Assembly (NCBI RefSeq): GCF_000027125.1
Contig: NC_017626.1
Reading direction: 5' to 3' (one strand)
DNA: 64,000 bases
DNA from: Escherichia coli 042
GTDB lineage: Bacteria > Pseudomonadota > Gammaproteobacteria > Enterobacterales > Enterobacteriaceae
In this document: positions 15,001 to 21,000 of the stretch, piece by piece
Position numbering within the stretch: the stretch's first letter is position 1
Layout of the letters: every line of letters begins with the position of its first letter
Position numbers: made by a program

Positions 15001-18000
15001 TTGCTGAACGCCGTAAGGACAGTTTTGGTCCGTATGTCCGGCTGATGAGCGTCACCCTGAACTGAGTCTGGAAGGGAATTCTGATGAGCAGAATTATCGC
15101 CACTACCGGACCATTCTTAACCGATTTTCTGTGAGGACTTTATCGTGTCAGACACACTCCCCGGGACAACGCCTCCCGACGACAATCACGACCGCCCCTG
15201 GTGGGGGCTGCCCTGCACCGTGACGCCCTGTTTCGGGGCCCGACTGGTACAGGAGGGTAACCGCCTGCATTACCTTGCAGACCGCGCCGGTATCAGAGGC
15301 AGGTTCAGCGACGTAGATGCGTACCACCTGGACCAGGCCTTTCCGCTGCTGATGAAACAACTGGAACTCATGCTCACCGGCGGTGAACTGAATCCCCGCC
15401 ATCAGCATACCGTCACACTGTATGCGAAAGGGCTGACCTGCGAAGCCGACACCCTCGGCTCCTGTGGTTACGTTTATCTGGCTGTTTATCCGACACCGGC
15501 AGCGCCCGCAACCACCGTATAACACCGGATATCTCCCCTTTATCACCACCTGTTACAGAGAACTTAAGATGAATACATTACCCGACACTCACGTACGGGA
15601 GGCATCGGGCTGCCCGTCTCCCATCACCATCTGGCAGACACTGCTCACCCGACTGCTGGACCAGCACTATGGCCTCACGCTGAATGACACACCGTTCGCT
15701 GATGAACGTGTGATTGAGCAGCATATTGAGGCAGGGATTTCACTGTGTGACGCGGTGAACTTTCTCGTTGAAAAATACGCGCTGGTACGTACCGACCAGC
15801 CGGGATTCAGCGCAGGAGCCCCGTCGCAGTTAATCAACAGCATTGATATTCTCCGGGCACGCCGGGCAACCGGCCTGATGACCCGCGATAACTACAGAAC
15901 GGTAAATAACATTACCCGGGGGAAGCATCCGGAAGCGAAACAATGAAACTGGCCCTGACGCTGGAAGCCGACAGCATTAACGTGCAGGCACTGAACATGG
16001 GGCGCATTGTCGTTGACGTCGATGGTGTTAATCTCGCTGAACTGTTTAATAAAGTCGCGGAAAATGGTTATTCACTCCGCGTGGTGGAGGAATCCGACCA
16101 ACAGTCAACCTGCACACTACCACCGTTTGCAACCCTTGCCGGCATACGCTGCAGTACCGCACATATCACGGAAAAGGATAACGCCTGGCTGTACTCGCTG
16201 TCACACCAGACCAGTGACTTCGGTGAATCAGAATGGATTCATTTCACAGGTAGCGGATATCTGTTACGTACCGATGCGTGGTCATATCCGGTTCTGCGGC
16301 TTAAACGCCTGGGGCTGTCAAAAACGTTCCGTCGTCTGGTTGTCACACTCATCCAACGTTATGGCGTCAGTCTCATTCATCTGGATGCCAGCGCTGAATG
16401 TCTGCCGGACCTGCCCACTTTCGACTGGTAACCAGGAACAACATGAAATCATTAACCACGGAAACCGCACTGGATATTCTGATTGCGTGGCTACAGGACA
16501 ATATCGACTGCGAATCGGGAATTATCTTTGACAACGATGAGGATAGAACGGATTCGGCAGCACTGTTGCCCTGTATCGAACAGGCCAGAGAGGATGTCCG
16601 TACCCTGCGTCAGCTGCAGTTTCTGCAACAGAACCGGTGAGTCTTACTCACCAGACTTCATTCCACTGACGCCAGCCTGAATACGGCTGGCGTTTTCGTT
16701 TATCTGCAAAAAGGAATATCGATTATGTCTGAAATCACAGCCTCTCGTCCGGAAGTGGTCAACGGGCATACGGACGTTATCTGCTCAACCAGTATCCGCC
16801 ACATTCTGGCTGTACGAAAGAGTACATTGCTGCAAATCGACACACTTATCCGACAACTGGCTGAAATATCAGCAATAACAGAAAGTATTAGAGGTAAAAC
16901 GGCTCTGGACTGGGCCATGAAACAGGATTTTCGCTGCGGTTGCTGGCTGATGGAGAAACCGGAAACCGCAATGAAAGCCATCACACGCAATCTTGATCGC
17001 GAACTCTGGCGTGATCTGATGCAACGTTCCGGGATGCTGAGTCTGATGGATGCGCAGACCCGGGACACATGGTACAGGTCACTGGAATATGATAATTTTC
17101 CGGAAATCAGCGAAGCGAACATTCTGAGCACATTTGAACAACTGCACCAGAACAAAGATGAAGTGTTTGAACGGGGAGTGATCAACGTCTTCAAAGGGCT
17201 GAGCTGGGATTACAAAACCAACTCACCCTGTAAATTTGGCAGTAAAATTATCGTCAACAACCTGGTGAGGTGGGACCGGTGGGGGTTTCATCTTATCACC
17301 GGGCAACAGACTGACCGACTCGTCGACCTGGAAAGAATGCTACATCTGTTCAGCGGCAAACCGATCCCCGACAACCGGGAAAACATCACTATTCGTCTGG
17401 ATGGTCACATCCAGTCCGTTCAGGGTAAAGAGCGCTATGAAGACGAGATGTTCATCATTAAATACTTTAAGAAGGGATCTGCACACATCACTTTCAAAAG
17501 GCTGGAACTGATTGACAGAATTAACGATATAATAGCCAGGTACTTTCCTTCTGTGCTCTCAGCCTGATCCCGAGTGTGATTCCCTTTCGATATCAAAAGG
17601 GACTGCGGGTATAATTGAGGGTACATTTTTAATCAAACCAAACAAATTGCATTAATATCAATATGATAAAAGAAATTTTCGATTCCGAGTCCGGCACCAC
17701 TAATTCTTAAGAACCCGCCCACAAGGCGGGTTTTTGCTTTTGGATCTTTATATAAAATAAACTTGGGAGCATAACGCCATCAGGTCTTAAACACTCCCGA
17801 ATCATCAATAAACATCCCCCGCTAACAAAACACAGTTCAGTTCACATAACATCCCTGTTATCCCACACATATCTGCTGGCCGAACGACGCCAGTGCGCGT
17901 ACGGAGGCAAGAGCAGCCCTGCACATGGCAGCGCTTGTGGTAACCTGGTTTAATCCGGTGAAAGAGGCGTTTTACATGCATCTGCCAGCAGCCGGAAAAA

Positions 18001-21000
18001 CCAAAAAAGTGGCGCTGGTTGACTGTATGCGTAAATTGCTGACCATCCTGAACGCAATGCTCAGAAAGAACGAAGAGTGAAATGAATCGTAGCATCATGT
18101 TGCTCCATAATTTTTACGTTCAAGACAGTTGATTATCGGCGCATATGACTCAAAAAGAGCCTGATGATTGCCTCTTTTCCATAGGCTCTTTCTCTGAAGT
18201 GAAGGAAGGCCCGGAAGAAAGCACTCGCTGGCATACGTGACTCCAGCTCAACCGGAGATAATCACCATTGTTATTTTTCTATTTAATAATAATCTCCTGA
18301 AAAATAGATATAGCAAAAATACAATCCGGCCAGATTTAATTCCGCATTCATTACCAGAAATAATCAACACCACAACTATCATATCATTCAATAGTCACCG
18401 CTAAAATTTTATTATCTTCCTCTTCTTTACATAGAAATTGTCAACCTGTTTATTATGCCGCACTTAAATAGTTAATCACAAAACAACATCACCATTATTT
18501 GCGTGTTTTATTTATTAATAACATAGTCATACGTTCTTTTTTTACAAGGAAATAATCAATTGATAAATTGTTTTTGGTCTTAATAGTCAAGTAGGAAACA
18601 TTTTAATAAATGATAAAAATCCTAAATTCCTTGTTCATAATGTAGGGGTGTGTTAAATAGGTGGGCAAAATTTGGTTCCCCTTCTCGCCTGTAATATTGC
18701 AGCATCTTCGCACCTCCATGAGACATTGCGACTTAATAAGAAGGTGATAAGTCCTGCATATAAGCATGGACTGACCATGGTTTTATATTCATTAAAAATT
18801 TTGTTACAACCCATTGATTTAGCATAAATAAATTATAGTGGGTTCGGGTTTGTTGTGACTGTGGCATTATTTCCGTGCAAAGGAGCTGATATGTCTGAAA
18901 GACATTTACCTGATGACCAGAGCAGTACTATCGATCCATATCTAATTACCTCTGTTCGCCAGACTCTGGCAGAACAAGGCGCAGCATTACAAAACTTGTC
19001 TAAACAACTGGATTCCGGGCAGTACCAGCGTGTCCTTAATTTGATAATGAACTGTAAAGGTCACGTTATTCTTTCGGGAATGGGTAAATCAGGGCATGTC
19101 GGTCGTAAAATGTCAGCGACGCTGGCCTCTACGGGTACGCCTAGTTTCTTTATTCATCCTGCAGAAGCTTTCCATGGCGATCTGGGCATGATTACGCCTT
19201 ACGATCTTCTGATCCTTATTTCTGCCAGCGGTGAAACGGATGAAATCCTCAAGCTAGTTCCTTCACTGAAAAATTTCGGCAACCGAATTATCGCCATTAC
19301 CAATAATGGAAATTCCACGCTGGCGAAAAATGCTGATGCCGTGCTGGAACTCCACATGGCGAATGAAACCTGCCCGAATAATCTTGCACCAACAACGTCT
19401 ACCACGCTGACGATGGCGATCGGCGATGCGCTGGCGATTGCCATGATCCACCAACGCAAATTTATGCCGAATGATTTTGCGCGCTATCACCCGGGCGGTT
19501 CATTAGGTCGTCGCCTGCTGACCCGCGTTGCTGATGTCATGCTGCATGATGTTCCTGCTGTACAGCTGGATGCGTCATTTAAAACCGTGATTCAACGTAT
19601 CACCAGCGGATGCCAGGGAATGGTGATGGTAGAAGACGCAGAAGGTGGGCTAGCGGGCATTATCACCGACGGTGACCTGCGTCGCTTTATGGAAAAAGAG
19701 GATTCTCTGACATCCGCCACGGCTGCGCAGATGATGACACGTGAACCGCTGACGCTACCGGAAGACACCATGATCATTGAAGCGGAAGAAAAAATGCAAA
19801 AGCACCGCGTCTCAACGTTATTGGTGACCAACAAGGCAAATAAAGTCACTGGCCTTGTGCGCATTTTCGACTAATTAAGCAACGGGGTGCGAGAGGTTAG
19901 TCTCTCATTGAGTTTGCGCCCCACTGAAACTTTGATAATCGTTACATGTTGATAAAAGTGAAGTCTGCCGTATCCTGGATGCGTGCTCGTCTGTCTGCCA
20001 TCTCACTGGCAGATATCCAAAAACACCTGGCGAAAATCATCATTCTGGCACCGATGGCGGTGCTGCTGATCTATCTGGCTATCTTCAGCCAGCCTCGCTA
20101 TATGAGCGAGTCGAAAGTCGCCATTAAACGCTCGGATGATTTAAACAGCGGCAGCCTGAATTTTGGTCTGCTTCTGGGTGCCTCTAACCCCAGTTCCGCA
20201 GAAGATGCGTTGTATCTGAAAGAGTACATCAACTCGCCGGATATGCTGGCGGCGCTGGATAAGCAACTAAATTTTCGTGAAGCGTTTAGCCACAGCGGGC
20301 TCGATTTTCTTAATCATCTTAGCAAGGATGAAACCGCAGAAGGCTTCCTGAAGTACTACAAGGACCGTATCAACGTCTCGTATGACGATAAAACCGGATT
20401 ACTGAATATTCAGACGCAGGGTTTTAGCCCGGAGTTTGCGCTTAAGTTTAACCAGACCGTGCTGAAAGAGTCAGAGCGCTTTATCAATGAGATGTCACAT
20501 CGCATCGCGCGTGACCAGCTTGCCTTTGCAGAAACGGAGATGGAAAAGGCACGCCAGCGTCTGGACGCCAGCAAAGCGGAATTGCTCTCTTATCAGGACA
20601 ACAACAACGTTCTGGATCCACAGGCACAGGCACAGGCGGCGAGCACGTTAGTGAATACGCTGATGGGCCAGAAGATCCAGATGGAAGCGGACCTGCGGAA
20701 CTTGCTGACGTATCTGCGTGAGGACGCCCCGCAAGTTGTGAGTGCGCGTAATGCGATTCAGTCATTGCAGGCACAAATTGACGAAGAAAAAAGCAAAATC
20801 ACAGCGCCGCAGGGTGACAAGCTAAACCGTATGGCGGTGGATTTTGAAGAAATCAAATCAAAAGTAGAGTTCAACACCGAGCTGTACAAACTGACCCTGA
20901 CCTCCATTGAAAAGACCCGTGTAGAAGCGGCTCGTAAGCTCAAGGTGCTGTCAGTGATCAGTTCGCCACAGTTGCCGCAGGAATCGTCTTTTCCAAATAT

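What the first reader, a model, noticed from the sequence alone, without database searches (positions are those of the whole stretch)
17568..18891. Island-capsule junction: hairpins, IS110-family transposase fragment and the kps region 1 leader
The right end of the CP4-like element abuts the kps region 1 promoter region. Between them are a palindrome (about 17580..17603), a strong terminator-like hairpin (17713..17737) and a 58-codon C-terminal remnant of an IS110-family transposase. Past IS activity next to the region 1 promoter could influence capsule expression.
Basis: partly seen in the sequence, partly recalled or inferred. Interest (0 to 1): 0.35.

Follow-up and report, generated by a model that had tools for sequence, protein, structure and literature searches.

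The report
Island attR scar beside capsule promoter
This stretch is the well-known seam in pathogenic E. coli where a tRNA-Phe-integrated genomic island ends, followed by the pheV tRNA terminator, an old dead IS110 fragment that almost every capsule locus carries, and the already mapped promoter region of the kps capsule genes; it is ordinary and already described.

Summary
Window 17678-17699 is a 22-nt copy of the 3' end of tRNA-Phe, the attR of a P4-integrase-type island. The "strong terminator-like hairpin" is the native pheV terminator, identical in K-12-like strains. The kps segment starts at 17748. It carries 158 bp of unknown origin, then a 5'-truncated IS110-family remnant (about 17906-18131), then the AT-rich PR1 regulatory region.

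Published PR1 features map onto the window: PR1-1 start 18666, H-NS/SlyA sites 18442-18587, IHF site 18804-18816, kpsF ATG 18891.

The remnant does not depend on the island. kpsF is found in 1704 of 5426 complete E. coli genomes, and the left flank plus remnant in 1613. Of these, 210 have an intact pheV and no island, 525 have this type of island end, and the rest have other contexts.

The remnant lies 535-760 bp upstream of the PR1-1 start, outside every mapped cis-element. It keeps about 56-61 of about 322 codons and neither catalytic domain.

The attR sequence, the PAI/kps arrangement and the transposase fragment are all in the literature. Verdict: a real feature, already known, of low interest.

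The parts
16725..17567 (+). Last gene of the island (DUF4942 protein), rightmost gene of the yee/CbtA-type module
   Evidence: ORF; Pfam PF13708 DUF4942, E = 1.3e-65; annotated as such in strain 144.
17568..17677 (+). Non-coding terminal arm of the island (the part of attR derived from attP). Contains the palindrome 17581-17602 and two GGGTA motifs at 17606-17610 and 17618-17622.
   Evidence: Present with the island at pheV whether or not kps follows. Found in 1799 of 5426 genomes, up to 3 copies each. Also ends islands at pheU and at a third locus. Palindrome; its RNA fold is not significant.
17678..17699 (+). attR core: a 22-nt direct-repeat copy of the 3' end of tRNA-Phe (TTCGATTCCGAGTCCGG-CACCA, one G fewer than the tRNA)
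   Evidence: Four-way alignment with intact pheV. The identical string is listed as the attR of many GI-pheV islands in Table 1 of PMC11537424. The 99.97% identity to a pheU-borne copy of the island stops exactly at 17699.
17700..17747 (+). Native pheV 3' flank with the pheV intrinsic terminator (stem-loop 17708-17736, T-rich tail)
   Evidence: Identical downstream of intact tRNA-Phe in the K-12-like strain 4A and in the island-free kps strain Z142-4. -18.1 kcal/mol, z = -4.0; also found by the terminator scan.
17748..17905 (.). Left edge of the kps segment: 158 bp of unknown origin
   Evidence: The breakpoint against K-12 lies at 17747/17748. The sequence occurs only at this locus, single-copy, in 1631 genomes at >=95% identity, even in a sensitive search.
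17906..18131 (+). 5'-truncated IS110-family remnant. It keeps the last ~56-61 codons (reading frame ends at a TGA at 18078-18080 that replaces a Trp codon; the ancestral stop is at 18108-18110) plus a ~21-bp right end.
   Evidence: 85-87% DNA identity to full-length elements in E. coli, Klebsiella, Xenorhabdus and others; all alignments start at 17906-17911 and end at 18131-18138. The full-length relative has PF01548 and PF02371 and matches IS621 (E = 2e-29). The remnant alone gives no Pfam hit. PGAP labels it 'IS110 family transposase, missing N-terminus'.
18132..18441 (+). Spacer between the IS remnant and the mapped PR1 elements, becoming AT-rich (GC falls from 42% to 30%)
   Evidence: Composition profile. 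No mapped cis-element lies here in PMC8960920. In some strains ISEc10 has inserted here with a 5-bp duplication of 18329-18333.
18442..18587 (+). H-NS/SlyA binding sites I (-224 to -134) and II (-121 to -79) of PR1
   Evidence: Positions from PMC8960920, converted with +1 = 18666. GC is 26-30% here. This is a mapping by coordinates, not tested here.
18631..18666 (+). PR1-1 promoter: -35 TTGTTC (18631-18636), -10 TAAATA (18654-18659), transcription start about 18666
   Evidence: The start is 225 bp upstream of kpsF (PMC5738388). The hexamers were read from the sequence. The published IHF site position agrees with this register.
18666..18890 (+). Region 1 5' UTR. Contains H-NS site III (18666-18697), the PR1-2 -10 TATATT (18784-18789) with start +132 (18797), the IHF site TTACAACCCATTG (18804-18816), and the PR1-3 start +181 (18846).
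   Evidence: The IHF site and the PR1-2 -10 strings quoted in PMC5738388 are found verbatim in the window at the expected offsets.
18891..19874 (+). kpsF, first gene of kps region 1
   Evidence: ORF; annotated KpsF/GutQ family isomerase; present in 1704 genomes.

Best explanation
The interval is a layered historical seam made by three independent events. It is not a functional unit.

(a) A capsule (kps, group 2) segment, window 17748-35637, replaced about 101 bp between the pheV terminator and yghD. Its left flank already carried an IS110-family element that had been cut down to its last ~226 bp.

(b) Later, a P4-integrase-type genomic island integrated site-specifically into the 3' end of pheV. 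This duplicated 22 nt of the tRNA as attR (17678-17699). The original pheV terminator (17708-17736) was left immediately downstream of attR.

(c) The kps region 1 control region (PR1: three tandem promoters, H-NS/SlyA and IHF sites, 18442-18890) lies untouched about 745 bp further on.

Functionally:
- attR is the substrate for integrase-mediated excision of the island.
- The retained terminator most likely stops transcripts leaving the island's rightmost operon, which points toward kpsF. This step is inferred.
- The IS110 remnant is an inert scar.
- Capsule transcription is controlled by the published PR1 elements.
For: Shown here:
- Four natural configurations exist: neither insertion, kps only, island only, and both. 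They share exact breakpoints at 17677/17678 and 17747/17748.
- The attR string is identical to that published for GI-pheV (PMC11537424).
- A 99.97%-identical copy of the island sits at pheU in other strains. Identity ends exactly at 17699, the signature of site-specific recombination.
- In that strain the island starts with tRNA-Phe followed by a tyrosine recombinase.
- The terminator is identical in K-12-like strains and folds strongly.
- The remnant lacks both catalytic domains and carries a premature stop.
- The remnant plus flank is in 1613 genomes against 1704 with kpsF. It occurs with an intact pheV in 210 genomes and with this island end in 525.

From the literature:
- The published PR1 landmarks fall at self-consistent positions.
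- In CC95 the kps locus predates the PAI, and the PAI has excised repeatedly through the 22-bp repeats (PMC10272209).
Against: - The order of events (kps first, island later) is inferred from the configurations and from published CC95 dating. It is not shown for this genome.
- The window's own attL, pheV and integrase lie outside the window (no tRNA found). No complete RefSeq genome has exactly this island/kps combination.
- No expression data were available, so the insulating role of the terminator and the neutrality of the remnant are not demonstrated.
- The published full-length PR1 reporter (-646 to +227) starts at window 18020 and therefore includes the last ~110 bp of the remnant. A contribution of that part has never been separated out.
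Confidence: 0.9

Rival explanations
1. One reading: the IS110 remnant, or the IS event that left it, acts in cis on the region 1 promoter (an outward promoter, an altered upstream context, or an H-NS nucleation site) and so influences capsule expression.
For: IS110-family right ends can carry a -35 element that forms a promoter on circularisation (my own knowledge of the family, not tested). The remnant points toward kpsF. The standard PR1 reporter begins inside the remnant at window 18020, so its 3' end has always been part of 'PR1'. Active IS insertions do occur in this upstream region in some lineages (ISEc10 at 18329-18333).
Against: The remnant ends 535 bp upstream of the PR1-1 start and 310 bp upstream of the outermost footprint. 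No promoter-like site was found at its right end, and the number of promoter-like sites in the region is at chance level (7 found, 4.9 expected). The remnant is nearly fixed in kps-positive genomes, including Nissle 1917 and APEC strains, so it cannot explain differences between strains. It is unrelated to the island junction.
Confidence: 0.06
2. The palindrome at 17581-17602, with the flanking GGGTA motifs, is a protein-binding site in the island's att arm (for the integrase, an excisionase or IHF) needed for excision or integration, rather than a chance palindrome or an RNA hairpin.
For: It lies 76-97 bp from the attR core, inside the attP-derived arm. It is invariant within a 35-column invariant block, while nearby columns vary, in island ends at pheV, pheU and a third site. 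A zero-spacer 11-nt palindrome with one mismatch is expected only about 0.01 times by chance in a 1.3-kb interval (my estimate, about 8e-6 per position). It is not a convincing RNA hairpin or terminator.
Against: The seven copies represent essentially two lineages about 87% identical, so a 35-bp invariant run is not statistically compelling. No binding data or known consensus was checked. The matching arm at attL was not available for comparison.
Confidence: 0.25
3. The hairpin region encodes a small RNA (an Rfam P9-like match) or is an island-borne terminator rather than a chromosomal one.
For: There is a sub-threshold Rfam match to Pseudomonas sRNA P9 at 17648-17734 (24.6 bits, E = 0.064).
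Against: The score is far below the family's gathering threshold of 43 bits, and the aligned part is only the generic GC-rich terminator stem. The same 48 bp follow intact pheV in strains with no island, so the hairpin is chromosomal and is the tRNA gene's terminator.
Confidence: 0.02
4. The junction of a 'pheU-type' island with the pheV/kps flank reflects a large chromosomal inversion between islands at pheU and pheV, or an assembly chimera, rather than ordinary integration at pheV.
For: Window 1-17699 is 99.97% identical to an island located at pheU in four or five complete genomes. No complete genome shows the same combination.
Against: Homologous recombination between two islands would put the crossover inside island sequence. 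Here identity runs to the very last base of the 22-nt core, as expected for integrase-mediated insertion into the alternative, identical attB. Closely related island ends are found at pheV next to kps in 525 genomes. pheU and pheV encode the same tRNA, so they share the attB.
Confidence: 0.05

Closest known systems
GI-pheV / PAI-V type islands of E. coli (P4-like integrase intP4/intB, integrated in pheV, 22/23-bp imperfect direct repeats)
   Same: The attR sequence TTCGATTCCGAGTCCGG-CACCA is the same as in APEC O1, S88, 536, ED1a and others (PMC11537424). The position between pheV and kpsF is the same (PMC10272209). The yee/CbtA/DUF4942 right-hand module is the same.
   Different: The cargo differs. 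This copy's nearest relative (99.97%) is a pheU-located island carrying microcin H47 genes. Its attL and integrase are outside the window.
kps PR1 regulatory region (Simpson 1996; Corbett 2007; Jia 2017; Aldawood & Roberts 2022)
   Same: The 225-bp 5' UTR, the IHF site TTACAACCCATTG near +140, the PR1-2 -10 TATATT and the AT-rich H-NS/SlyA region are all present in register.
   Different: Nothing detected. The window adds no new element.
IS110-family insertion sequences (IS621-like, RNA-guided DEDD/serine recombinases)
   Same: The remnant is 85-87% identical in DNA to the 3' end of full-length family members that carry PF01548 and PF02371 and match IS621.
   Different: Only the last ~20% of the gene and the right end survive. 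There is no DEDD domain, no catalytic part of the Tnp domain, no left end (where elements of the IS110 subgroup encode the bridge RNA), and a premature stop. It is not a functional element.
Rho-independent terminator of the pheV tRNA gene
   Same: The sequence is identical to that downstream of pheV in K-12-like strains, with a canonical GC stem and U-tract.
   Different: Here it is separated from the tRNA gene by the island and follows only the 22-nt tRNA fragment. Any current activity would be on island read-through transcripts.

Membership tests
tRNA-integrated genomic island (GI-pheV type) right junction (attR) | Direct-repeat copy of the 3' end of the target tRNA gene at the distal island boundary | tested here: met
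   17678-17699 aligns to the last 23 nt of tRNA-Phe with one G deleted. The string is identical to the published GI-pheV attR.
tRNA-integrated genomic island (GI-pheV type) right junction (attR) | Chromosomal sequence beyond the repeat is the native flank of the tRNA gene | tested here: met
   17700-17747 is identical to the pheV 3' flank in island-free strains.
tRNA-integrated genomic island (GI-pheV type) right junction (attR) | Intact tRNA gene followed by a tyrosine (P4-like) integrase at the other island end | not testable with these tools
   The left end is outside the window (no tRNA found). By proxy, the 99.97%-identical island in strain BEC1-S17-ESBL-09 starts with tRNA-Phe and a tyrosine recombinase.
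tRNA-integrated genomic island (GI-pheV type) right junction (attR) | Presence/absence polymorphism with precise boundaries at the repeat | tested here: met
   210 genomes have an intact pheV joined directly to the kps flank, and 525 have this island end. The breakpoints are precise.
IS110-family insertion sequence | N-terminal DEDD (RuvC-like) domain, PF01548 | tested here: not met
   Absent from the remnant. Homology starts at about residue 258 of about 322. There is no Pfam hit for the remnant.
IS110-family insertion sequence | C-terminal Transposase_20 domain, PF02371 | tested here: not met
   Only the last ~18 residues of the domain remain, and no hit is found at E <= 0.01. The full-length relative does have the domain at residues 196-278.
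IS110-family insertion sequence | Sequence descent from a family member (homology of the 3' coding end and right end) | tested here: met
   85-87% DNA identity over about 221-231 bp to full-length elements in several genera. The relative matches IS621 at E = 2e-29. It is therefore a relic of a member, not a member.
kps group 2 PR1 promoter region | PR1-1 start 225 bp upstream of kpsF, with the IHF site TTACAACCCATTG near +140 and the PR1-2 -10 TATATT before +132 | tested here: met
   The strings are found at 18804-18816 and 18784-18789, in register with +1 = 18666 and the ATG at 18891.
kps group 2 PR1 promoter region | Actual transcription starts and H-NS/SlyA/IHF binding in this strain | not testable with these tools
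   These are experimental features. Only positional and sequence correspondence and low GC (26-30%) could be checked.
Intrinsic (rho-independent) terminator | GC-rich stem-loop followed by a T-run, more stable than shuffled controls | tested here: met
   12-bp stem, 5-nt loop, T-rich tail, -18.1 kcal/mol, z = -4.0.

The most novel reading that the evidence does not exclude
Island insertion might not be neutral for capsule expression. It moves the strong, co-oriented pheV promoter from about 1 kb to tens of kb away from PR1. It replaces that promoter with the island's kpsF-directed yee/DUF4942 operon, held back only by the retained pheV terminator. PR1-2 is known to be activated by transcription-coupled supercoiling from upstream (PMC5738388). 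The change of upstream transcription, or the conserved remnant and flank at 17748-18131 acting as a distal H-NS-bound element, could therefore tune PR1 output between island-plus and island-minus strains.
Probability: 0.05. Interest if true: 0.35.

Novelty: already known. Interest (0 to 1): 0.08.

Why it matters
It matters little beyond correct annotation. The value of the check is negative: the IS110 fragment should not be read as evidence of recent IS activity or as an island-associated modifier of capsule expression. It is a nearly fixed scar of the kps locus. The correct landmarks (attR 17678-17699, pheV terminator, kps left boundary 17748) are useful for delimiting GI-pheV and the kps segment in genome annotation. 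They are also useful for designing island-excision or promoter-fusion experiments.

Tried and rejected
- **Rfam scan of 14000-22000.** It gave only a sub-threshold P9 sRNA match that rides on the terminator stem, plus a chance IRES hit. Rejected.
- **tRNA search.** No tRNA was found in the whole window. The attR fragment is too short to be called, and the intact pheV lies outside the window.
- **Palindrome as RNA hairpin or terminator.** The fold is not better than shuffles and there is no T-run. Rejected as a terminator.
- **Outward promoter at the remnant's right end.** None was found, and the regional promoter count is at chance level.
- **Matching IS remnant or repeat at the right end of the kps segment** (34500-35700), which would have suggested a composite transposon. 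None was seen.
- **Origin of 17748-17905.** A sensitive BLAST in E. coli found only the kps-linked copy.
- **Ancestral full-length IS at the same junction.** An exact-pattern scan of species-representative genomes with the right-end junction gave 0 hits. A second scan with an internal IS pattern found only unrelated copies of relatives in Klebsiella, Xenorhabdus, Pseudocitrobacter and a Collinsella MAG contig.
- **Source genome of the window.** It was not found among 5426 complete genomes.

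
Full report
**Observation**

- The island's last gene (DUF4942 family, Pfam E = 1.3e-65) ends at 17567.
- A palindrome TCCCTTTCGAT/ATCAAAAGGGA lies at 17581-17602.
- A GC-rich stem-loop with a T-rich tail lies at 17708-17736.
- A short reading frame ending ...KKVALVDCMRKLLTILNAMLRKNEE* at 18080 resembles the C-terminus of IS110-family transposases.
- The kpsF ATG is at 18891.

The hairpin is thermodynamically strong (-18.1 kcal/mol, z = -4.0, 0 of 200 shuffles). The palindrome is not (z = -0.63) and has no T-run.

A BLAST of the interval against 5426 complete E. coli genomes showed that K-12-like genomes match only window 17678-17747, and that the match sits on and just after tRNA-Phe. 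I aligned four natural configurations:
- K-12-like strain 4A: yqgA-pheV-yghD.
- Z142-4: yqgA-pheV-IS110 fragment-kpsF, with no island.
- Z1323CEC0018: island-yghD, with no kps.
- The window: island and kps.

The alignment gives exact breakpoints.
- Window 17678-17699 is the last 23 nt of tRNA-Phe with one G missing.
- 17700-17747, including the hairpin, is the native 3' flank of pheV and is identical in all four.
- kps-specific sequence starts at 17748.

The "strong terminator-like hairpin" is therefore the pheV terminator. The junction proper is an attR. The string TTCGATTCCGAGTCCGG-CACCA is listed verbatim as the attR of GI-pheV in APEC O1, S88, 536, ED1a and many others (PMC11537424, Table 1).

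**The island**

The genes left of the junction fit the CP4/P4-like label: an H-NS-like protein, IS30, IS600, YagK/YfjJ, a YfjP-type GTPase, a WYL regulator, DUF932, an antirestriction protein, RadC, a YeeU/CbtA pair and DUF4942.

The 110-bp terminal arm (17568-17677) occurs in 1799 genomes, up to three times per genome. It ends islands at pheV, pheU and a third site.

Window 1-17699 is 99.97% identical (5 mismatches) to an island that sits at pheU in strain BEC1-S17-ESBL-09. There the island begins with tRNA-Phe and a tyrosine recombinase and ends against cadC. Identity stops at exactly 17699, the last base of the tRNA-derived core. That is the expected signature of integrase-mediated insertion of the same element into the alternative, identical attB. 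It argues against an inter-island inversion, whose crossover would lie inside island DNA.

The window's own attL lies outside it (no tRNA found). No complete genome has this exact island/kps combination.

**The kps segment and the IS110 remnant**

Against K-12, window 17748-35637 replaces about 101 bp between the pheV terminator and the yghD stop codon.

Its first 158 bp (17748-17905) have no homologue elsewhere in E. coli.

The remnant follows.
- Alignments to full-length relatives in E. coli, K. pneumoniae, Xenorhabdus and others all begin at 17906-17911 and end at 18131-18138, at 85-87% identity.
- The full-length relative (322 codons) has DEDD_Tnp_IS110 at residues 9-155 and Transposase_20 at residues 196-278. 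It matches the IS621 recombinase at E = 2e-29.
- The remnant corresponds to about residues 258-322. It gives no Pfam hit on its own.
- A TGA replaces a Trp codon ten codons before the ancestral stop.

It is a dead relic. It retains neither catalytic domain, nor the left end where IS110-subgroup elements encode their guide RNA.

**Is the remnant tied to the island or to the promoter?**

It is tied to neither.
- kpsF (>=80% coverage) is in 1704 genomes.
- The left flank plus remnant (17748-18140) is in 1613 genomes at 98-100% identity, including Nissle 1917 and APEC IMT5155.
- A probe spanning yqgA-pheV-flank is contiguous in 210 genomes, meaning kps with no island.
- A probe spanning DUF4942-attR-flank is contiguous in 525 genomes.
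- The remaining genomes have other island ends, for example a DUF6088/AbiEii end or IS600 fused at 17791.

These counts come from separate searches, so the overlap between the genome sets is inferred rather than tabulated. The sampled rows are consistent with it.

From attR onward the junction is the same whether or not an island is present, and whatever island it is.

**Mapping the published PR1 region**

- PR1-1 starts 225 bp upstream of kpsF, so +1 = 18666.
- The IHF site TTACAACCCATTG is at 18804-18816 (+139 to +151).
- The PR1-2 -10 hexamer TATATT is at 18784-18789, before the +132 start.
- PR1-3 starts at +181, which is 18846 (PMC5738388).
- H-NS/SlyA sites I, II and III (-224 to -134, -121 to -79, +1 to +32; PMC8960920) map to 18442-18532, 18545-18587 and 18666-18697.
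- GC falls to 26-30% at these positions.

The remnant lies at -760 to -535, 310 bp beyond the outermost footprint. The standard "entire PR1" reporter (-646 to +227) begins at window 18020, inside the remnant, so its last ~110 bp have always been part of the construct.

No promoter-like site lies at the remnant's right end. The regional count of promoter-like sites is at chance level (7 found, 4.9 expected).

**Mechanism**

Shown: three independent events with precise boundaries. These are kps segment acquisition, decay of an IS110 element in its flank, and site-specific island integration in pheV.

From the literature: in CC95 the kps locus predates the PAI, and the PAI has been lost at least 14 times through its 22-bp repeats (PMC10272209).

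Inferred:
- The retained pheV terminator now faces the island's kpsF-directed right-hand operon and probably insulates PR1 from it.
- The palindrome may be a protein-binding site of the att arm. It is invariant in all copies examined, but those copies amount to about two lineages, so the evidence is weak.

**Comparison with what is known, and novelty**

Each component is described.
- GI-pheV/PAI-V attR and its position next to kpsF: PMC11537424 and PMC10272209.
- PR1 architecture: PMC5738388 and PMC8960920.
- A transposase gene (c3684) upstream of region 1 in CFT073, and the IS21-like insertion seen in K100 strains: PMC12488582.
- The fragment is routinely annotated by PGAP as an incomplete IS110-family transposase.

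Nothing here departs from those descriptions. The finding is real but already known, and its functional speculation is not supported. The expression part needs experiments.

**Residual novel reading**

The island displaces the strong, co-oriented pheV promoter from about 1 kb upstream of PR1. PR1-2 responds to upstream transcription-coupled supercoiling. An effect of island presence on PR1 output therefore cannot be excluded, but nothing here points to one (probability about 5%).

Noticed in passing
window 1-17699: This stretch is 99.97% identical (5 mismatches) to an island located at pheU, not pheV, in strain BEC1-S17-ESBL-09 and three or four other complete genomes. There the island carries microcin H47 genes and ends against cadC. 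Identity ends exactly at the last base of the attR core. The same island has therefore used both tRNA-Phe genes recently.
   Followed up: yes
window 18329-18333 (L008: 5653-5657 and 8067-8071): In strain AVS0575 an ISEc10 (IS21 family) element is inserted between the IS110 remnant and PR1, with a 5-bp target duplication, at about -335 from the PR1-1 start. The same arrangement is reported for K100 strains in PMC12488582. This is genuine recent IS activity upstream of PR1, unlike the remnant.
   Followed up: partly
window 4445-5385 and 17791 (L007: 4061-5001 joined to 5001 onward): In strain XYEH3783 the right end of IS600 is fused directly to window position 17791. This equals a deletion of window 5386-17790 (yee module, attR, pheV terminator) next to the IS600 copy that the window itself carries. 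An IS600-adjacent deletion of this kind would explain islands that lack a recognisable attR.
   Followed up: partly
window 17748-35637: The whole kps segment (about 17.9 kb) replaces about 101 bp of K-12 sequence between the pheV terminator and the yghD stop codon. No flanking repeat and no IS remnant was seen at its right end.
   Followed up: partly
window 17748-17905: These 158 bp at the left edge of the kps segment have a C-rich strand bias (GC skew about -0.29). They have no homologue anywhere else in 5426 E. coli genomes. The origin is unknown.
   Followed up: partly
L004 2232-3200; L006 1729-2697: The closest full-length relatives of the remnant in E. coli are themselves pseudogenes with the same internal stop. 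They lie inside CP4-like islands next to zinc-ribbon, inovirus Gp2-family and Hha genes. Apparently multicopy relatives occur in K. pneumoniae ATCC 13883 and Xenorhabdus japonica.
   Followed up: no
window 17606-17622: Two GGGTA motifs 12 bp apart lie just after the palindrome. They are conserved in diverged island ends while the bases between them vary (TATAATTGA against TACAAAAGA). This looks like a pair of short protein-binding repeats in the att arm.
   Followed up: no
window 827-1573 (- strand): An island-borne protein has N-terminal HTH domains fused to a C-terminal H-NS DNA-binding domain (PF00816, E = 6e-12). In the related strain it is annotated as two frameshifted pieces. The island thus carries an H-NS-like gene next to an H-NS-regulated capsule locus.
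   Followed up: no
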